Part shown: positions 52,222 to 57,758 of the stretch, piece after piece
Position numbering within the stretch: the stretch's first letter is position 1
Layout: every line of letters starts with the position of its first letter
NCBI GenBank assembly: GCA_035528115.1
Contig: DATKZF010000003.1
Coordinates: forward strand, 227,795 to 291,794
From: Candidatus Bipolaricaulota bacterium
GTDB lineage: Bacteria > Patescibacteriota > Patescibacteriia > UBA11705 > DATKZF01
Direction: 5' to 3'
DNA length: 64,000 nucleotides
The notes under the pieces: generated by a model
Databases searched by the model: none
What the model was told of the DNA's origin: nothing
Seen by the model: the letters and a program-made list of their open reading frames with translations, nothing else
Translations under genes and position numbers: made by a program

Positions 52222-53310
52222 CTATCTCGCACGCAAAATCTTGTACATCTTGTACCCCAAATCCCACACCTTCAAAACAACCGGCCTGAAAATAAGCTGA
52301 TAGCACCCCAAATACTCAAAAATCGGCCGGCTCGGGTCAAAACCTTGTTTGAATCTGGTAATACCCTGCCAGGACTTTTCCTTTTTCACTTTGGAATCAG
52401 CGGGCGCGGCTCCCCAAAAATCATAAATTTCAAAGCCTTCTTTTTTCGCGTCGCAAATAGCGCGCCACTGTAAAAGGTGCGGGGCCATGACATTGCGATA
52501 TTTATCCGAAGAGGCGCCGAAAAGGTAGGTGGCCACGTTTTTATAATAAACGCACAAAATCCCGGCCACAACTTTGTTTTCAAATTTCGCCAAATACAAT
52601 TTCGAAAAATCGAATTTTAAAATATCCTCGAAATATTTCAGCGGGTACGCGCCGAATTTTTGCCGAGCCGTTGTTTGTTTCAATAATTCAAAGAACGTGG
52701 CCGCGTCTTTTGACTCCTCGACCTTCACTCCCTTTTTCTCAGCCAGCCTGATATTATATCTGGTTTTCTGGCTCATTTTCGCCAGCAATTCGTCTTCAGA
52801 CTGTGAAATATCGAGCATGATGGTGTGGGCCGGCTGGACTTCGTCATTTGATTTTTTCAAACCCAGATTCTCAAAAGCTTTTTTCCAAACATTTTTTTCA
52901 TCAATGGCCAAGCTCGACCACTTTTCTTTTTCCGGCAAATTTCCGGCGTCAATTATCACATTGGGATCGATTCGAAAAAGCAATGATTTGTTTTCTTTGG
53001 CAATCGCACGGACTTTTTCAAATAATAATTTCAAAACCTGCTCGAGCTTTTGCTCGTCATTTAAAATTTCATCGCAAACGACCGGGCCTCTGGGGCAATA
53101 CAAGCCGTTTTGTCCGATCAAAAACCGATGTTTCCAAAAAAACATTTGCGCCAAGATTTTCTCGCCGTCTTTTACCTCCAATCGCCAGATTTTTTGCTGG
53201 CGGCCGGACTGAAATTCGCCCCATTCAAAAGATTGTAAAAGAGAGCCGGTTTTTTGGGCGGCGTTGAAGGAAGAATAGGGGGTTTGAATTTGAGATTGTT
53301 CGACAATCAT
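52222..53310 (-). CDS. FemAB-family peptidoglycan interpeptide-bridge aminoacyltransferase
   Basis: 362 aa. Family-typical motifs ('YNIRLAEKKG', 'GAYPLKYF', 'APHLLQWRAI'). Confidence 0.75.
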   Translation of the reverse strand: MIVEQSQIQTPYSSFNAAQKTGSLLQSFEWGEFQSGRQQKIWRLEVKDGEKILAQMFFWKHRFLIGQNGLYCPRGPVVCDEILNDEQKLEQVLKLLFEKVRAIAKENKSLLFRIDPNVIIDAGNLPEKEKWSSLAIDEKNVWKKAFENLGLKKSNDEVQPAHTIMLDISQSEDELLAKMSQKTRYNIRLAEKKGVKVEESKDAATFFELLKQTTARQKFGAYPLKYFEDILKFDFSKLYLAKFENKVVAGILCVYYKNVATYLFGASSDKYRNVMAPHLLQWRAICDAKKEGFEIYDFWGAAPADSKVKKEKSWQGITRFKQGFDPSRPIFEYLGCYQLIFRPVVLKVWDLGYKMYKILRAR

Positions 53311-53346: not shown

Positions 53347-54192
53347 TCAATGACGAGGATTTTTGTTTTTCAATTGCCGCTCATTACTGCCATTAATGAC
53401 GCTCTTTCCGGTTTTGCTTTCAATGTCCTTTCTGGCATTACCGGCCACGCTTCCGCCATCTCTTGCCACGATTTTATTTTCATCCATATTTTTCGGCTGA
53501 CGTTTTTGGGAAATTTCGGTCGTGGCGGTTTCGGCAAGCATATTCAAAACCAGCTCAAGATTCGTCATATTATCGCGTAAATTTTCCTTTTTCAAATTTT
53601 TCAACCGCTTGTATTCTTTGGTGGTCAATCCTGCCCAAGCCTTGATTATCTCATCGGTGAGAATGGCAAATTCCAATCCATCTTTCACGCCGCGCTTTTC
53701 CCATTCATCGGTCAACGCTTTTCTTATTTCAATACTTTTTAAGCGTTGATTGATCCATTCCTGACTGTACCCCTTTTGCCAATAAGTCTTTAGCGCGCGG
53801 TCTATCGCCAATTCCGGATCAGCGGTCTCCTCCAGCCGTTCATATCCCACGCGCGCCAGCCAAAGTTTAAATGGTTCGGCATTGGGAGAAGGGATGGACT
53901 GGATAAGACGAAGCATGGTTTCGGTATCAGCCGCGTCAGTAAGACGCATTTTGCCGTCCGGGGCAATCATTTTCAAAGCGTTACATTTTGTAACGGTTTC
54001 ATTTGAACCTTCATCAATCAATCGTTTTTTCAGCACGCGCCAATAAACCTGCGGATTATCACTCTTTGTAAGAACCGCTATTACATCAGCTACCGAGAAA
54101 TACCAGATTTCCTTTTCTCCGTCCCAATGACGGCGAATTTGATTTCCTTCAAAAATCGCTATTGTTTTGTTTTTTGATTCCTTTTTTGCCAT
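53347..54192 (-). CDS. DinD-like DNA-damage-inducible protein with a Bro-N/KilAC-like N-terminal domain
   Basis: 281 aa. 'IAIFEGNQIRRHWDGEKEIWYFSVADVIAVLT' is Bro-N-like. The overall layout resembles E. coli DinD. Confidence 0.6.
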   Translation of the reverse strand: MAKKESKNKTIAIFEGNQIRRHWDGEKEIWYFSVADVIAVLTKSDNPQVYWRVLKKRLIDEGSNETVTKCNALKMIAPDGKMRLTDAADTETMLRLIQSIPSPNAEPFKLWLARVGYERLEETADPELAIDRALKTYWQKGYSQEWINQRLKSIEIRKALTDEWEKRGVKDGLEFAILTDEIIKAWAGLTTKEYKRLKNLKKENLRDNMTNLELVLNMLAETATTEISQKRQPKNMDENKIVARDGGSVAGNARKDIESKTGKSVINGSNERQLKNKNPRH

Positions 54193-54218: not shown

Positions 54219-54395
54219 TTATTTTTCTTTCCGGCTAAAAATTTTCTCTCCGTCTTTTACCTCCAACCGCCGGATTTTTTGCTGGCGGGTTTTTTGGAAT
54301 TCGGACCAATTCAAGGATTGCAAAAGAGAGGAGGTTTTTGGGGAAAGGGCAAAATTTTGCCAGGAGGTTTGATCAGAAAATTCTTCGATTCTCAT
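54219..54395 (-). pseudogene. Diverged duplicate of the femAB 5' end (N-terminal 55 codons), a remnant
   Basis: Nucleotides 54225-54400 are about 80% identical to 53160-53310. It translates to 'MRIEEFSDQTSWQNFALSPKTSSLLQSLNWSEFQKTRQQKIRRLEVKDGEKIF', against femAB 'MIVEQSQIQTPYSSFNAAQKTGSLLQSFEWGEFQSGRQQKIWRLEVKDGEKIL'. It then terminates. Confidence 0.55.
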
Positions 54396-54407: not shown

Positions 54408-54920
54408 TTATTCTTTAAATATTAAATATTTTTTAAAAAGTTCTCTTGATTCGTCAAATTGTTTTTGAAACCAAGTCAACAAATCATAACTTTCTTGAGC
54501 CAACCCTGTTCTTTTATCTCCAATAGGTAACCTTGCATCATTCAATAATCTGCTCACCATTGCTAAACGTATCGCCTTTCCTCTTAGAGTGTCAATATAA
54601 TTGGGAATCTCTTTATCAAATAGAAATTCTCTTTCATTTGTATCTGCGATAAATTGATTTAGGACTTTAGGGTTAACTGTCGCATTAATCATGGCATCAC
54701 GCAATAAAGCAGTGATTGCCTTATATATCGTGTATCTTCTGTCATATAGATTTAATTTAAATTGATCAGATCTTGTTCTGTGTTCTTGATATGCGATATA
54801 CGCTACAAAAATAGCAATCATGGGGGTCAATAGGCCTGATAGTATTACTATCAATCTAACATATTCGATCATCTCCGTTATTTTATGAATTATTGACACG
54901 GTAAACATAACGACAAACAT
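54408..54920 (-). CDS. Hypothetical single-pass membrane protein, downstream partner of the Rx4HG (HEPN-like) gene
   Basis: 170 aa with an N-terminal TM 'VRLIVILSGLLTPMIAIFVAYIAY' and a cytoplasmic helical domain. A 2-nt gap to the upstream gene suggests an operon. Confidence 0.45.
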   Translation of the reverse strand: MFVVMFTVSIIHKITEMIEYVRLIVILSGLLTPMIAIFVAYIAYQEHRTRSDQFKLNLYDRRYTIYKAITALLRDAMINATVNPKVLNQFIADTNEREFLFDKEIPNYIDTLRGKAIRLAMVSRLLNDARLPIGDKRTGLAQESYDLLTWFQKQFDESRELFKKYLIFKE

Positions 54921-54922
54921 AC

Positions 54923-56065
54923 TTAACTGTAAAAAAATAATTGATCAAGAATCAAAATCAACTGTAAAGCACGTTGCTTTGTATATTGTTGTGGTTCCGC
55001 AACTCCGTGGCCCGCTGAATTGCGCGACATACCAATATTTCCAGCCTCGACATTAAAGGTTGCAAAGACAACATCCTTTAAGTATGTTAAAAATGGCAGA
55101 GGAAATAACAATGAATGATCTGAACCAGTTTTATTTTTCGCCTTTTCGACAATGTGTTTGGATAACTCGTATGATTTTATTCCAACGCCTTTCCCCGTAT
55201 CTACAAAATAAAGTATTCTCAATACTCCTTCAATCTCAGACCACAATGTTTTTATGCAAGTCACAAATCCATCCGGATTATTTTGCATATAAGCATTAAC
55301 ACCAGCCCCAATCAAAGCCTTTTTTTCTGAAAAAATTTTGTTTTGCCACCACTTTTCTGTTATTTTCTTTATGCGACTTGAATCAAAACTATCTACAATA
55401 ATTTTAATTCTGTTTTCAAAATCAAATCTGTTTTGATAGACTTCAGTCAATTGCTTGTAAGCAATGGCAATAATCTCTATAAAAGGGAACCAACCATCTT
55501 TCCTCATATCAGCGAACTGAGCCCCCGCCTCCAGGGTTTTATAAACATGATAAAAAGAAAGATATCTATACAATCCGCCTATAGATAATTCCATTTTCTC
55601 CATATCTAATTGTTGGTGATCTCCCGTGTGGAAATCAACCGCAGTAAAATCAAAAAATAATCCAAATCGCCATCCAACTTTAAAACAATAAATTACACTG
55701 TCATTTGAAACAATACTTATATCACCAAACTTTATTTTTCTGATGTCTGCGACGTCGGCATCGGTTATGGCCTCTCCAACCTTTACATCTCTCTTTGCCT
55801 TAATTTCAACTAATACTTTAAAATCATTCACATATAGATCCGCGCTCAAATCATCATGTATAACAATGAGGAACTGGCATACTGAATCTTCCAGAACACC
55901 TGCTCGGGATAGAAACAAGTTTGATATTTGATCCATGTATTTGTAAAAAACCGGCTCGTCTGACGTTAACTTAGCGCGTATTAAAATTTCTGCCACCTCG
56001 CCGTCTTTTACATTCTTGGTAGAAAAGCCAGCAAGATTATCGACTTTATCAAAGTAAAATTTCAT
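54923..56065 (-). CDS. Hypothetical protein with a C-terminal Rx4HG (HEPN-like) motif. Candidate RNase toxin / abortive-infection effector.
   Basis: 380 aa. 'NIGMSRNSAGHGVAEP' carries R-x4-H-G near the C-terminus (compare 'RNxxAHG' of many HEPN nucleases). No other family recognised. GC is lower than the background. Confidence 0.4.
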   Translation of the reverse strand: MKFYFDKVDNLAGFSTKNVKDGEVAEILIRAKLTSDEPVFYKYMDQISNLFLSRAGVLEDSVCQFLIVIHDDLSADLYVNDFKVLVEIKAKRDVKVGEAITDADVADIRKIKFGDISIVSNDSVIYCFKVGWRFGLFFDFTAVDFHTGDHQQLDMEKMELSIGGLYRYLSFYHVYKTLEAGAQFADMRKDGWFPFIEIIAIAYKQLTEVYQNRFDFENRIKIIVDSFDSSRIKKITEKWWQNKIFSEKKALIGAGVNAYMQNNPDGFVTCIKTLWSEIEGVLRILYFVDTGKGVGIKSYELSKHIVEKAKNKTGSDHSLLFPLPFLTYLKDVVFATFNVEAGNIGMSRNSAGHGVAEPQQYTKQRALQLILILDQLFFYS

Positions 56066-56141
56066 ATTAATTTAATGTCTCAAAAATCTTCTTTACTAAT
56101 TTCGTCCTCGCGTAAAAAGCGCGCGTTATCGGTCGCCTTTA

Positions 56142-56333
56142 CTAAACCCACCACGCCTGAAACTCCGGATACGTCAGGGAATCGTAAAAATCCAAATATT
56201 TATCATCCTCCCAAACCAGCTCCGTGAAATTCTTCAGATCTTCATTATATCCGCGGCACATGACTTTCAAGCGCGCCAGCGGATTGAATCTTAACATGAT
56301 TTTAGCGGAAGTGGGAGAGATATTGATTTCCAT
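56142..56333 (-). CDS. Hypothetical small protein (63 aa)
   Basis: ORF between the DpnI-like gene and the Rx4HG gene. No recognisable motif. Confidence 0.3.
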   Translation of the reverse strand: MEINISPTSAKIMLRFNPLARLKVMCRGYNEDLKNFTELVWEDDKYLDFYDSLTYPEFQAWWV

Positions 56334-56338
56334 ATTTT

Positions 56339-57109
56339 TTAATTGAGTTTGTATTTCCCTCTGCCCAAAAACTTCAAATACCCGCCATCGCGCAAAAACT
56401 GCAACTGCTGGCGGATTTTGTCTTTGATATGCTTATTTTCTGGATGCAAAAGGCTTAATTCTTTTTCAAAAGCATACATTTCATCGAGCGAAAATTCTTT
56501 TTTCCCGACTTGATCAACGCAGCACATGACGTCAAGCGTCCAGCCTTTGGCTGATATTTCTTTTTCTTCTCGCAAAAACAAAGTTTTCTTCCAGTCGTCC
56601 AGCACCTTTTTCTTCGGCGCAATTCGCTTATCTCGGACGAAAAATATTTTGCCGGTTTGAGGAATGCTTTTTAGAATGATATTGCAGCCCACCCAGCCGG
56701 CGCGGCGAGCGGATGGAGGAAGCGGCTTTCGTTTCTCGATCATTTCAGGCACGAAAAAATGTTTGGGGATCACGATAAAATTTATTACCTGCAAGCTCTT
56801 CAAATTATAATTTAGAAAAAAGAAATTGGGATTGGCGCTGCTTTTCAGACGATCCAACATGGTCTTATACGCTCCGTCGACTATTTTCAAACCCATGGAA
56901 TCTCTTTTACTTTTCAATTCATAATCTTCCAGGCAATTGGCGCAATAAAAATCGGCTGCCGGCCGATTATTCGGATATTTATCGATTTCAACGCGGCCGC
57001 AATTCGGACAAAAGATGGAATGATCAACCCAATTTTCCGTCAAAACGCGCGCTTTTTGCGAAGCGCTTTTATAATTTGTAGCTAACTTTTTATCAAAAAA
57101 TAATTTCAT
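56339..57109 (-). CDS. DpnI-like methyl-directed restriction endonuclease (Dam-replacing protein family)
   Basis: 256 aa. 'YKSASQKARVLTENWV...FCPNCG...NRPAADFYCANC...YELKSKRD' matches the DpnI/DRP catalytic domain pattern. A C-terminal winged-helix-like region ends 'FLGRGKYKLN'. Confidence 0.6.
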   Translation of the reverse strand: MKLFFDKKLATNYKSASQKARVLTENWVDHSIFCPNCGRVEIDKYPNNRPAADFYCANCLEDYELKSKRDSMGLKIVDGAYKTMLDRLKSSANPNFFFLNYNLKSLQVINFIVIPKHFFVPEMIEKRKPLPPSARRAGWVGCNIILKSIPQTGKIFFVRDKRIAPKKKVLDDWKKTLFLREEKEISAKGWTLDVMCCVDQVGKKEFSLDEMYAFEKELSLLHPENKHIKDKIRQQLQFLRDGGYLKFLGRGKYKLN

Positions 57110-57128: not shown

Positions 57129-57758
57129 TTATTTACAAGCCCGCGCGACCCATCTGCCATGGCTATCCAAATCCAATTGCAGATCTCTAAATTTTGAAAA
57201 CAATTTTTGAACTTCCTCCCTTGTATAAAAACTGTGAGGCAATCCTTTTTCCGGACCCGATAATGGGGCGAAAGTCCCTTCGGATATTTCCTGATGATTT
57301 TTAAAAGTATTCCATTTCTTACTGCTTTCAAGATCAGGCAACGTAATGAAGGTTCTTCCATTGGTAACAATTGACTCAAAAATTCTATTTATCAAAGATT
57401 GAACCTGCGCCTTTGTTCCATGGTGGATCGTGGCGATGGACAGTATCAAATCGTATTTATCCTTAGGAATTTCAAATTCAAACATATTCGAGCAAAGAAT
57501 GACGGAATCATCGCCCAGCTCTTTTTTTGTCATTTCCACCGCTGTTTCACTCGAATCAATGCCATCTGTTTTAAATCCGCCTGCTTCCAAAAATTGCAAA
57601 TATTTTCCCGTACCGCACCCGATATCCAAAACATATTTAATTTCAAAATCAGATTGATTTAAAAATTCTTTAAATAAAGGATGGATTTCTTCCGAAAGAG
57701 TCGCCCAAGCTTGGCCGCCTTGCTGATAATTCTTATAAATTTTATCCCAAATAGTCAT
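57129..57758 (-). CDS. Class I SAM-dependent methyltransferase (TehB-like small-molecule MTase)
   Basis: 209 aa. 'VLDIGCGTGKYLQFL' is motif I. It lacks DNA-MTase target-recognition features. Confidence 0.75.
   Translation of the reverse strand: MTIWDKIYKNYQQGGQAWATLSEEIHPLFKEFLNQSDFEIKYVLDIGCGTGKYLQFLEAGGFKTDGIDSSETAVEMTKKELGDDSVILCSNMFEFEIPKDKYDLILSIATIHHGTKAQVQSLINRIFESIVTNGRTFITLPDLESSKKWNTFKNHQEISEGTFAPLSGPEKGLPHSFYTREEVQKLFSKFRDLQLDLDSHGRWVARACK

What the first reader, a model, noticed from the sequence alone, without database searches (positions are those of the whole stretch)
56339..57109. DpnI-like methylation-dependent restriction endonuclease next to a non-DNA SAM methyltransferase
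The protein carries the Dam-replacing/DpnI catalytic-domain signature ('YKS.SQKAR..TE.W......CP.CG...NRP.ADFYC..C...ELKSK') plus a C-terminal winged-helix-like region. The layout is that of type IIM enzymes that cut G(m6A)TC DNA. It implies the host lacks Dam methylation and uses modification-dependent restriction. The adjacent methyltransferase (57129-57758) looks TehB-like (small-molecule), not a DNA MTase, so this is a solitary modification-dependent enzyme. Together with the Rx4HG/membrane pair it forms a compact defence cluster.
Basis: partly seen in the sequence, partly recalled or inferred. Interest (0 to 1): 0.55.

Follow-up and report, generated by a model that had tools for sequence, protein, structure and literature searches.

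The report
DpnI-type methyl-directed restriction cassette
This gene encodes an ordinary, already annotated relative of the restriction enzyme DpnI, which cuts only adenine-methylated GATC DNA; what is new is that it travels with a conserved, uncharacterised 63-residue protein as a two-gene cassette that has overwritten an older GATC restriction-modification operon, a scrap of which is still in this window.

Summary
ORF 56339-57109(-) encodes a full-length 256-aa DpnI orthologue: both Pfam domains match, and PDB 4esj gives E 3e-86. Every catalytic, zinc-binding, GATC-reading and methyl-pocket residue of R.DpnI is kept. The exact protein is already in NCBI as a "DpnI domain-containing protein", and thousands of homologues exist.

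The neighbouring 209-aa methyltransferase is a generic class I SAM enzyme without a DNA-adenine motif. It never recurs beside DpnI.

The enzyme is not solitary. The 63-aa ORF 6 nt downstream (56142-56333) belongs to a conserved, unannotated family. It lies directly after DpnI in 18 of 79 assessable reference-genome loci. Of 86 loci retrieved through orf63 itself, 68 have DpnI directly upstream. Its dN/dS is 0.10.

In related genomes the DpnI-orf63 pair sits between the 5' stub of a DpnA/LlaDCHIB-like adenine methyltransferase and the 3' stub of a MutH/Sau3AI-family endonuclease. The window keeps the last 23 codons of that endonuclease (56067-56138). DpnI therefore replaced a GATC restriction-modification operon, as happened in pneumococcus and Neisseria.

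The 380-aa neighbour has a HEPN fold and a conserved Rx4H motif. A PDC-S13 defence-candidate gene lies further downstream.

Verdict: a new member of a known kind, of moderate interest.

The parts
56339..57109 (-). Gene for a 256-aa R.DpnI orthologue (type IIM, G(m6A)TC-dependent endonuclease)
   Evidence: ORF. Matches PF06044 and PF17726, PDB 4esj at E 3e-86 and PADLOC mREase_II at E 2e-116. It is 50% identical to S. pneumoniae R.DpnI.
56567..57109 (-). N-terminal PD-(D/E)XK catalytic domain with a Cys4 zinc site (aa 1-181). Contains E25, D53, E64 and K66; C34, C37, C56 and C59; and the GATC/m6A readout residues Q18, N48, R127, L130, R136, W139 and G141.
   Evidence: Pfam stretch 1-181. Residue roles come from PMC3424567 and PMC4117772. 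Conservation in the window protein and 75 homologues is shown.
56348..56551 (-). C-terminal winged-helix domain (aa 187-254), whose recognition helix carries D230, K231, R233 and Q234
   Evidence: PF17726 at E 5.5e-32. The R.DpnI wH contacts are E228, K229, R231 and Q232. In the window E228 is D, which is the majority state (68 of 76), and the other three are invariant.
56142..56333 (-). orf63: a conserved 63-aa acidic protein (pI 4.65) of unknown function, 6 nt downstream of the DpnI stop codon; the second gene of the cassette
   Evidence: The family has 168 clusters, all labelled 'hypothetical', with no Pfam domain. 15 columns are invariant. It is at +1 of DpnI in 18 of 79 assessable genome loci, and 68 of 86 orf63 loci have DpnI directly upstream. 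dN/dS is 0.10. The AF2 model has pLDDT 74.7 and no fold match.
56067..56138 (-). Scar: the last 23 codons and the stop codon (RRPITRAFYARTKLVKKIFETLN*) of a deleted MutH/Sau3AI-family endonuclease gene. It fills the spacer between orf63 and the next gene.
   Evidence: tblastn gives 20 of 20 identical residues to the C-terminal end of the 121-aa stub (E 4.8e-7). The sequence was read directly. The stub is the C-terminal 60% of 206-aa PF02976 proteins.
57129..57758 (-). Upstream neighbour: a 209-aa class I SAM methyltransferase that is not part of the cassette
   Evidence: Matches Methyltransf_23/25/11/12/31 and, weakly, TehB. All NCBIfam hits are far below their cut-offs. PDB relatives are small-molecule, tRNA or protein methyltransferases. 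It is absent from all 166 other DpnI or orf63 loci.
54923..56065 (-). Downstream neighbour: a 380-aa protein with an N-terminal beta-rich domain and a C-terminal HEPN domain (R348-x4-H353-G354)
54408..54920 (-). 170-aa protein with one predicted transmembrane helix (about aa 20-44), overlapping or abutting the HEPN gene
   Evidence: ORF; hydropathy. No family hit. It was not found next to HEPN-protein homologues in three other contexts.
54219..54395 (-). 58-codon duplicate of the N-terminus of the FemAB gene (about 56% identical), marking a second insertion junction
   Evidence: tblastn of FemAB; gene call in L001; translation.
53347..54192 (-). 281-aa BRO-N / DinD-like protein, equivalent to the PADLOC single-gene defence candidate PDC-S13
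   Evidence: PDLC04920 at E 6.3e-131, full length. Bro-N at E 1.1e-8. phrog_15286 at E 6.5e-123.

Best explanation
The ORF encodes a functional orthologue of R.DpnI. This is a monomeric type IIM restriction endonuclease in which an N-terminal zinc-bearing PD-(D/E)XK domain and a C-terminal winged helix each read fully adenine-methylated G(m6A)TC, and the catalytic domain cuts it. The cell's own GATC sites must be unmethylated. The enzyme therefore destroys incoming DNA (phage, plasmid or transforming DNA) that was replicated in Dam-positive or GATC-RM-positive neighbours.

The gene is not solitary. It is the first gene of a two-gene cassette, DpnI plus a 63-aa acidic protein (orf63). In Patescibacteria-type genomes this cassette replaced the interior of an older two-gene operon made of a DpnA/LlaDCHIB-like adenine methyltransferase and a MutH/Sau3AI-family endonuclease, most likely a GATC restriction-modification system. 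Removing that methyltransferase is what makes DpnI tolerable. The window keeps only the last 23 codons of the old endonuclease gene.

Shown here: homology, intact functional residues, the conserved partner gene under purifying selection, the intact ancestral operon elsewhere, and the scars. Inferred: the enzyme's activity and specificity, the GATC specificity of the ancestral system, the absence of GATC methylation in this genome, and the role of orf63. My best guess for orf63, held with low confidence, is an accessory that modulates the nuclease, for example while the cassette establishes itself in a chromosome that is still methylated. The cassette lies in a small low-GC patch together with a HEPN-domain protein and a PDC-S13 candidate, so the region behaves as a defence islet.
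For: DpnI identity:
- PF06044 and PF17726 both match at full length; 4esj matches at E 3e-86; PADLOC mREase_II matches at E 2e-116.
- E25, D53, E64 and K66, the four zinc cysteines, and Q18, N48, R126, L129, R135, W138, G140, K229, R231 and Q232 are all conserved. Their roles come from PMC3424567 and PMC4117772.
- dN/dS is 0.085.

Cassette:
- orf63 is at +1 of DpnI in 18 of 79 assessable reference-genome loci, and 68 of 86 orf63 loci have DpnI directly upstream.
- The family has 168 clusters and 15 invariant columns, and dN/dS is 0.10.
- A related longer family (hhalign probability 86%, E 5e-6) occupies the same position in 9 more loci.

Replacement:
- Methyltransferase and endonuclease stubs of varying length, anchored at their outer ends, flank DpnI-orf63. 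17 loci have both stubs, and one example is L133: M(1-147)-DpnI-orf63-R(118-206).
- The intact M285-R206 operon is seen in L168-L171.
- The R stub is PF02976 MutH/Sau3AI.
- M285 is 50.6% identical over 95% of its length to the second methyltransferase of the DpnII-type LlaDCHI system on pSRQ700. The companion methyltransferase of that system, LlaDCHIA, makes GmATC (PMC4132740).
- The window scar lies at 56067-56138.
- orf63 is not a fragment of either old gene.

No other DNA methyltransferase was detected among the 64 window ORFs.

Precedents: the pneumococcal dpnC/dpnD cassette versus DpnII and the Neisseria dam-replacing gene.
Against: - No biochemical or methylome data exist for this organism.
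- Only 64 kb (plus 7 kb in L001) of a contig of at least 438 kb could be inspected, so a Dam-type enzyme elsewhere is not excluded. It would, however, be lethal alongside an active DpnI.
- GATC occurs at the expected frequency (O/E 1.01), which is uninformative.
- The best PDB match of the ancestral methyltransferase is CcrM, which recognises GANTC, so its GATC specificity is not proven.
- 31 DpnI-orf63 loci have no stubs, and the window lacks the methyltransferase stub.
- orf63 also occurs after GmrSD, MvaI/BcnI and Dam-class RM genes, and even after XseAB. Its link to DpnI is therefore not exclusive, and it may be positional rather than functional.
- orf63 has no recognisable fold or motif.
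Confidence: 0.85

Rival explanations
1. DpnI is functionally solitary, and orf63 is a passenger. On this reading orf63 is a small gene that happens to mark the 3' edge of a recombination hot spot where restriction genes are swapped, and it has no role in DpnI activity.
For: In 16 of 86 orf63 loci the upstream slot holds something else: GmrSD, GmrSD_N-HNH plus DUF4238, a MvaI/BcnI restriction-modification pair, a Dam-class methyltransferase, an unknown 251-aa protein, XseAB or an AlkD-like gene. 47 DpnI loci have neither orf63 nor stubs, and R.DpnI is active alone in vitro (PMC3424567). Different DpnI loci carry unrelated small ORFs downstream.
Against: orf63 is under purifying selection as strong as that on DpnI (dN/dS 0.10 against 0.085), with synonymous sites near saturation, so it is not merely a DNA homology arm. 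The gap to DpnI is 3-6 nt in most loci. A diverged homologous family occupies the same +1 position in other DpnI loci. The pair moved together into many unrelated genomic contexts.
Confidence: 0.35
2. The enzyme is kept for a non-defence role, such as genome maintenance, regulation or an effect on cell physiology as reported for the Neisseria Drg protein, and not for restricting foreign DNA.
For: Deleting drg in N. gonorrhoeae changes viability and biofilm formation (PMC4269198, abstract). CPR bacteria have small genomes in which retained genes are often multifunctional (general knowledge).
Against: The gene sits in a low-GC patch with a HEPN protein and a PDC-S13 candidate. It is patchily distributed and found in unrelated contexts. 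It is interchangeable at the same slot with GmrSD and classical restriction-modification systems. All of these are typical of defence genes.
Confidence: 0.1
3. The protein is a DpnI homologue with altered specificity, or it has lost catalysis and acts only as a methyl-GATC DNA-binding protein.
For: It is only 50% identical to the characterised enzyme, and E228 of the recognition helix is Asp here.
Against: All four catalytic residues, the zinc ligands, and every base-contacting and methyl-pocket residue identified crystallographically are identical. The E228D change is the family majority state.
Confidence: 0.05
4. The adjacent 209-aa methyltransferase is a DNA methyltransferase functionally coupled to the endonuclease, forming an unusual M-plus-methyl-dependent-R pair.
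For: There is a 19-nt gap on the same strand. PADLOC mad2 matches at E 3.9e-17, and mad2 of MADS is a predicted DNA N6-methyltransferase. There are weak MTase_II hits.
Against: There is no (D/N/S)PP(Y/F/W) motif, no target-recognition domain in 209 aa, and no DNA-methyltransferase Pfam family. PDB relatives are UbiG, tRNA, PRMT and BamL-type enzymes. It was never found beside DpnI or orf63 in 166 other loci. GATC methylation by it would be lethal.
Confidence: 0.03

Closest known systems
R.DpnI of Streptococcus pneumoniae (dpnC; PDB 4esj/4kyw) and its dpnC-dpnD cassette
   Same: It has the same two-domain architecture, 50% identity over the full length, and identical catalytic, zinc-binding, base-readout and methyl-pocket residues. 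As in pneumococcus, the endonuclease gene is followed by a second gene of unknown function, and it is allelic with a GATC restriction-modification system.
   Different: The partner is not DpnD: there is no PF14207 hit, and hhalign probability against DpnD/PcfM-like proteins is 1.3%. The system it replaced pairs a DpnA-like methyltransferase with a MutH/Sau3AI-family endonuclease rather than DpnM/DpnA/DpnII. Replacement left gene stubs rather than clean allelic cassettes.
Neisseria Drg/Drp ('dam-replacing gene', NmeBII), the founding members of Pfam PF06044
   Same: It belongs to the same family. The endonuclease is GmeATC-specific, and its gene physically replaces an adenine methyltransferase gene (PMC516771 and PMC4269198).
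   Different: In Neisseria, drg replaces the solitary dam gene at the leuS locus. Here a whole methyltransferase-endonuclease operon was overwritten, a small partner gene came along, and the composite then spread to many genomic locations.
DpnII-type GATC systems (DpnII, LlaDCHI of pSRQ700) and MutH/Sau3AI endonucleases
   Same: The ancestral methyltransferase (M285) is 50.6% identical to the second methyltransferase of LlaDCHI. The ancestral endonuclease is PF02976 MutH/Sau3AI. Both families act on GATC.
   Different: In the window these survive only as a 23-codon remnant, so the functional gene present is the opposite, methyl-dependent kind.
HEPN-domain toxins and abortive-infection proteins (HEPN/MNT, AbiV, RnlA, Csm6), relevant to the 380-aa neighbour
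   Different: It belongs to no described HEPN family: no Pfam, NCBIfam or PADLOC hit in 55 members. It has an unassigned 140-residue N-terminal beta domain and no MNT-type or other conserved partner.

Membership tests
DpnI / Dam-replacing family (type IIM endonuclease; PF06044 + PF17726) | Full-length match to the catalytic-domain profile above Pfam's gathering score | tested here: met
   PF06044 residues 1-181 against profile positions 1-182 of 183; 268.4 bits against a cut-off of 26.7
DpnI / Dam-replacing family (type IIM endonuclease; PF06044 + PF17726) | C-terminal winged-helix DNA-binding domain | tested here: met
   PF17726 residues 187-254; 110.2 bits against a cut-off of 23. Aligned with 4esj to residue 254.
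DpnI / Dam-replacing family (type IIM endonuclease; PF06044 + PF17726) | PD-(D/E)XK catalytic residues E25, D53, E64 and K66 | tested here: met
   All four are present at the same positions and are invariant in 76 of 76 homologues.
DpnI / Dam-replacing family (type IIM endonuclease; PF06044 + PF17726) | Cys4 zinc site formed by two CXXC motifs | tested here: met
   C34, C37, C56 and C59 are present and invariant.
DpnI / Dam-replacing family (type IIM endonuclease; PF06044 + PF17726) | GATC base readout and m6A methyl pocket in the catalytic domain (Q18, N48, R126, L129, R135, W138, G140) | tested here: met
   All are identical in the window protein, numbered Q18, N48, R127, L130, R136, W139 and G141.
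DpnI / Dam-replacing family (type IIM endonuclease; PF06044 + PF17726) | Winged-helix recognition-helix contacts E228, K229, R231 and Q232 | tested here: met
   The window has D230, K231, R233 and Q234. Asp is the majority state (68 of 76), and the other three are invariant.
DpnI / Dam-replacing family (type IIM endonuclease; PF06044 + PF17726) | Cleavage of G(m6A)TC that depends on methylation | not testable with these tools
   This needs purified protein tested on Dam+ and Dam- DNA.
DpnI / Dam-replacing family (type IIM endonuclease; PF06044 + PF17726) | Host genome lacks GATC adenine methylation | tested here: inconclusive
   Among 64 window ORFs the only DNA-methyltransferase model hit is a weak SAM-motif match by the 209-aa enzyme. 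The local DpnA-like methyltransferase gene is deleted.
DpnD/PcfM-like protein (PF14207), considered for orf63 | Match to the DpnD-PcfM profile | tested here: not met
   No hit at E up to 10. A Psychrobacter small ORF served as a positive control and does hit (E 7.7e-11). hhalign of A2 against A5 gives probability 1.3%.
DNA N6-adenine methyltransferase, considered for the 209-aa neighbour | Catalytic motif IV (D/N/S)PP(Y/F/W) and membership of a DNA-methyltransferase profile (N6_N4_Mtase, MethyltransfD12, N6_Mtase) | tested here: not met
   The sequence has no such motif. Only generic Methyltransf_11/12/23/25/31 and weak TehB hits are found. PADLOC MTase_II reaches only E 2.4e-4 over the SAM motif, but mad2 at E 3.9e-17 is a caveat.
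HEPN superfamily, considered for the 380-aa neighbour | Conserved Rx4-6H motif | tested here: met
   R348, H353 and G354 are each conserved in at least 90% of 55 diverse homologues; the consensus is SRHSxxHGVA.
HEPN superfamily, considered for the 380-aa neighbour | All-alpha HEPN fold | tested here: met
HEPN superfamily, considered for the 380-aa neighbour | RNase activity or a toxic phenotype | not testable with these tools
MutH/Sau3AI endonuclease family (PF02976), considered for the 56067-56138 remnant | Sequence continuity with the C-terminus of full-length family members | tested here: met
   20 of 20 residues are identical to the 121-aa stub (E 4.8e-7). The stub is 75-79% identical to 206-aa PF02976 proteins. 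The remnant ends at its own stop codon.
PADLOC candidate system PDC-S13, considered for the 281-aa gene | Full-length match to the PDC-S13 model | tested here: met
   PDLC04920 at E 6.3e-131, residues 7-278 against profile positions 3-273 of 286.

The most novel reading that the evidence does not exclude
orf63, together with its longer homologue that occupies the same position, is a dedicated partner of modification-dependent restriction endonucleases (DpnI, and occasionally GmrSD and an unknown HARE-HTH protein). It could be a small acidic modulator or transient inhibitor that lets a methyl-directed nuclease be installed in a chromosome that is still GATC-methylated at the moment the cassette overwrites the methyltransferase gene. 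On this reading it is a functional analogue of the long-unexplained pneumococcal DpnD, even though the two are not homologous.
Probability: 0.2. Interest if true: 0.6.

Novelty: new member of a known kind. Interest (0 to 1): 0.35.

Why it matters
The endonuclease itself adds nothing new, because it is already annotated and belongs to a family with thousands of members.

The context has more value. It shows that the switch between DpnI-type and DpnII-type GATC defence, known from pneumococcus and Neisseria, also operates widely in ultra-small CPR/Patescibacteria-type genomes. Visible scars allow the direction of replacement to be read: the methyl-dependent enzyme overwrote the methylase-based system.

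The context also identifies a tightly conserved, completely unannotated 63-aa protein that travels with DpnI. That protein is a concrete candidate for testing how a methyl-directed nuclease can be introduced into a methylated chromosome without killing the cell, a question left open since dpnD was described.

Tried and rejected
- orf63 against Pfam (E up to 10), PADLOC and PHROGs, plus NCBIfam at E up to 0.01: no hits.
- The orf63 AF2 model against PDB and BFVD with Foldseek: nothing better than E 0.09. The afdb50 library was unavailable.
- orf63 in viral contigs: none found.
- orf63 as a DpnD/PcfM relative: rejected.
- orf63 as a leftover fragment of the ancestral methyltransferase or endonuclease in any reading frame: rejected.
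- Conserved linkage of DpnI with the 209-aa methyltransferase, the 380-aa HEPN protein, the 170-aa membrane protein, the S51 peptidase, RuvA or FemAB: none in 166 other loci. PDC-S13 relatives appear near DpnI or orf63 in only about 5 loci.
- A conserved HEPN-380 / TM-170 pair: not seen in three independent homologue contexts.
- The apparent in-frame fusion of the 251-aa slot protein with orf63 in L163/L164: it results from a frameshift near the 3' end of the upstream gene, so it is weak evidence.
- GATC avoidance as a proxy for methylation status: O/E 1.01, uninformative.
- The promoter/terminator scan around the cassette: counts were at chance level.
- CcrM as the best PDB match of the methyltransferase stub raised the possibility of GANTC specificity. 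This is countered by the 50.6% full-length identity to the LlaDCHI second methyltransferase, though not excluded.
- R206 against plasmids: no match.
- A viral scan with the HEPN alignment could not be run.
Full report
**Observation.** An ATG-to-stop ORF of 256 aa lies at exactly 56339..57109 on the minus strand. Nearly every gene in the 64-kb window is on the same strand. The 209-aa ORF at 57129..57758 ends 19 nt upstream of it.

**What the protein is.** It matches Pfam DpnI (PF06044; residues 1-181, 268 bits against a gathering score of 26.7) and DpnI_C (PF17726; residues 187-254, 110 bits). It matches the solved S. pneumoniae R.DpnI (4esj/4kyw) at E 3e-86 from end to end, and PADLOC's type II methyl-directed restriction enzyme model at E 2e-116.

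The R.DpnI structure papers define the following residues (PMC3424567 and PMC4117772):
- a catalytic Glu25 and the D53...E64-x-K66 motif;
- a zinc ion held by two CXXC pairs;
- base contacts by Gln18, Asn48, Arg126 and Arg135;
- a methyl pocket of Leu129, Arg135 and Trp138, packed against Gly140;
- winged-helix contacts E228, K229, R231 and Q232.

I aligned the pneumococcal sequence with the window protein and 75 homologues. Every one of these residues is identical in the window protein except E228, which is Asp here, and Asp is the majority state in the family. Overall identity to R.DpnI is 50%. Membership of the family is therefore met on every sequence criterion. Only the enzymatic activity and the host's methylation state remain untested.

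**How new it is.** The exact protein is already in NCBI, named "DpnI domain-containing protein" from a MAG labelled Candidatus Bipolaricaulota, on contigs up to 763 kb. More than 7,900 homologues were scored, and the closest (70-77% identical) come largely from Patescibacteria MAGs. A scan of species-representative genomes returned 80 loci. Most are CPR/Patescibacteria, with some from Psychrobacter, Firmicutes, Alphaproteobacteria and others.

**The neighbouring methyltransferase.**
- It hits only generic class I SAM-methyltransferase families (Methyltransf_23/25/11/12/31; TehB weakly).
- All its NCBIfam hits are far below their cut-offs.
- It has DLILSIATIHH where DNA adenine methyltransferases carry (D/N/S)PP(Y/F/W).
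- Its PDB relatives are UbiG, tRNA, phosphoethanolamine, PRMT and BamL-type enzymes.
- It has one unexplained stronger hit to PADLOC 'mad2' (E 3.9e-17), and mad2 is the predicted DNA N6-methyltransferase of MADS. I treat this as a caveat.
- It was never found beside a DpnI or orf63 gene in 166 other loci.

Six nucleotides after the DpnI stop codon begins a 63-aa ORF (56142..56333), which is called as a gene in the public assembly.
- Distribution: it lies directly after DpnI, on the same strand, in 18 of the 79 reference-genome loci that could be assessed.
- Family: 168 clusters in the 5.8-billion-protein collection, nearly all 63 aa, all 'hypothetical', none with a Pfam domain. Fifteen of its 63 columns are invariant.
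- Linkage: of 86 loci retrieved through orf63 itself, 68 have DpnI directly upstream.
- Selection: pairwise dN/dS is 0.10, against 0.085 for DpnI in the same loci, with synonymous sites near saturation and third-position identity of 58%. It is thus a protein under selection and not just a conserved stretch of DNA.
- Properties: it is acidic (pI 4.65). The AF2 model is of moderate quality (pLDDT 74.7; order of elements beta, alpha, beta, beta, beta). It has no significant structural neighbour in the PDB or among viral proteins and no family hit.
- Relatives: it is unrelated to DpnD/PcfM (hhalign probability 1.3%), even though true DpnD/PcfM-like ORFs do follow DpnI in Psychrobacter. A longer family of 89-154 aa occupies the same +1 position in nine more loci and shares a homologous core with orf63 (probability 86%, E 5e-6). 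In L158 both occur in tandem.

**What the cassette replaced.** In many CPR loci DpnI is preceded by the N-terminal stub of a DPPY methyltransferase, and orf63 is followed by a truncated ORF.
- The downstream piece is the C-terminal part of a 206-aa MutH/Sau3AI-family endonuclease (PF02976). There are 1,206 homologues, and the full-length forms are 75-79% identical.
- The upstream piece is the start of a 285-aa N6_N4 methyltransferase. The two genes form an intact, abutting operon in L168 and L169-171.
- The stubs vary in length but are anchored at their outer ends. The methyltransferase stub ends anywhere from residue 33 to 163, and the endonuclease stub begins anywhere from residue 55 to 171. 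Seventeen loci have both stubs, for example L133: M(1-147)-DpnI-orf63-R(118-206).
- orf63 is not similar to either old gene in any frame.
- The intact methyltransferase is 50.6% identical over 95% of its length to the second methyltransferase of the three-gene LlaDCHI system on Lactococcus plasmid pSRQ700. That system is related to DpnII, and its companion methyltransferase LlaDCHIA makes GmATC (PMC4132740 and PMC6458302).
- MutH and Sau3AI both act on GATC (established knowledge).

The ancestral operon was therefore very probably a GATC restriction-modification system. A methylase of that kind cannot coexist with DpnI. One caveat is that the best solved relative of the stub is CcrM, which recognises GANTC.

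**The scar in the window.** The 76-nt spacer between orf63 and the next gene is not anonymous. Positions 56138-56067 read RRPITRAFYARTKLVKKIFETLN-stop, which is the last 23 codons of that endonuclease gene. Twenty consecutive residues are identical to the 121-aa stub (E 4.8e-7). No methyltransferase stub survives upstream. The window thus carries an eroded copy of the same composite: DpnI-orf63 inside the wreck of a GATC operon.

**The slot is exchangeable.** In 16 orf63 loci the upstream position holds something other than DpnI:
- GmrSD (L082/L083);
- an EcoRI-type methylase plus GmrSD_N-HNH plus DUF4238;
- an N6_N4 methyltransferase plus a MvaI/BcnI endonuclease;
- a Dam-class methyltransferase;
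- an unknown 251-aa protein with a faint HARE-HTH match, sitting between the same methyltransferase and endonuclease stubs;
- XseAB.

This is why the functional link between orf63 and DpnI stays open. It may serve modification-dependent nucleases generally, or it may simply be the stable right-hand edge of a swap site.

**Does the host lack Dam?** This could not be tested genome-wide.
- Among the 64 window ORFs, the only hit to any PADLOC DNA-methyltransferase model is the weak SAM-motif match of the 209-aa enzyme.
- The 7 kb beyond the window end holds none either.
- GATC occurs at its expected frequency (302 sites, O/E 1.01), which says nothing either way.
- The deleted local methyltransferase gene is the best indirect evidence.

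**The rest of the cluster.**
- The 170-aa protein has one predicted transmembrane helix and is not found next to homologues of the 380-aa protein in three other contexts.
- Further downstream a 58-codon duplicate of the FemAB N-terminus (54219-54395) precedes a full-length PDC-S13 candidate (53347-54192; E 6e-131), which abuts the intact FemAB gene.
- GC content falls to 0.34-0.41 across 54.0-57.5 kb, against 0.44 for the window as a whole.

Calling this a small defence islet is fair, but it is an assemblage of independent insertions and not one system.

**Mechanism and verdict.** Most likely (confidence 0.85) the gene makes an active G(m6A)TC-dependent endonuclease that restricts DNA coming from GATC-methylating neighbours. 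Those neighbours include relatives that still carry the ancestral operon. This gives a population-level DpnI/DpnII-style polymorphism like the ones in pneumococcus and Neisseria. The enzyme is a new member of a known kind and is already annotated. The conserved 63-aa partner and the readable replacement scars lift the interest to moderate.

Noticed in passing
window 54219-54395 (-), between the 170-aa gene and the PDC-S13 gene: A 58-codon ORF duplicates the N-terminus of the FemAB gene (52222-53310) at about 56% identity. This suggests the PDC-S13 gene was inserted into or beside a FemAB gene, or arrived with foreign FemAB flanking sequence.
   Followed up: partly
L013, L021, L022, L023, L026, L031, L034, L037, L038, L043 and about 20 metagenome loci (e.g. 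L133: 2766-3206 and 4189-4479): DpnI-orf63 is bracketed by the 5' stub of a DpnA/LlaDCHIB-like methyltransferase and the 3' stub of a MutH/Sau3AI-family endonuclease. There are many different breakpoints, so there was either repeated replacement or progressive erosion.
   Followed up: yes
L169-L171: 2511-4001; L084: 4588-5223: In some intact loci the methyltransferase is fused to an N-terminal LexA_DNA_bind plus Peptidase_S24 module (496 aa). In L084 a free-standing 211-aa LexA-like gene sits directly upstream of DpnI, possibly what is left of such a fusion after the methyltransferase part was overwritten. An SOS-type repressor fused to a restriction-modification methylase is unusual.
   Followed up: no
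L082: 4093-6192; L083: 995-3094: An orf63 homologue (76% identical) lies downstream of a GmrSD type IV modification-dependent endonuclease instead of DpnI. It is followed by a 59-aa remnant of the same MutH/Sau3AI gene.
   Followed up: partly
L139, L150, L153: 3244-3999; L155: 576-1331; L163: 2219-3202; L164: 1792-2775: An unknown 251-aa protein (only a faint HARE-HTH match) occupies the DpnI slot between the same methyltransferase stub and orf63, so it is possibly another nuclease. In L163/L164 a frameshift near its 3' end joins it in frame to orf63.
   Followed up: partly
L128: 72-824; L066: 5255-5962; L080: 5295-5954: Full-length beta-class DNA methyltransferases, only 23-40% identical to the ancestral one, sit immediately upstream of DpnI genes. 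They presumably have a non-GATC specificity. Pairing a methyltransferase with a methyl-dependent endonuclease is curious.
   Followed up: no
L068-L078 (Psychrobacter loci), +2/+3 of DpnI; other CPR loci at +1/+2: DpnI genes are usually followed by short same-strand ORFs from several unrelated families: DpnD/PcfM in Psychrobacter, and families beginning 'MNYKILQ', 'MPPFIF' and 'MNLGKF' in CPR. Only 8 of 79 loci have no such ORF within 120 nt.
   Followed up: partly
window, elsewhere (ORFs not identified individually): The PADLOC scan of all 64 ORFs also gave single hits to LmuA (E 1.8e-23), RTasMBL (5e-21), Avs1a (3e-15) and PDC-M48B (1e-14). These may be housekeeping proteins cross-matching, or further defence genes.
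   Followed up: no
L001: 291-1472 (beyond the window's 64000 end): A 393-aa protein with a Cas_csx3 domain lies about 5 kb upstream of the isoleucyl-tRNA synthetase gene that runs off the window.
   Followed up: no
whole window: CTAG is strongly under-represented (10 observed against 22 expected, O/E 0.45) and CATG is over-represented (O/E 1.29), while GATC is neutral.
   Followed up: no
whole window / source record: NCBI labels the source MAG Candidatus Bipolaricaulota, yet the closest homologues of DpnI, orf63 and the stubs are almost all from Patescibacteria/CPR MAGs. The window has the one-strand gene layout typical of those genomes, so the taxonomic label may be wrong.
   Followed up: no
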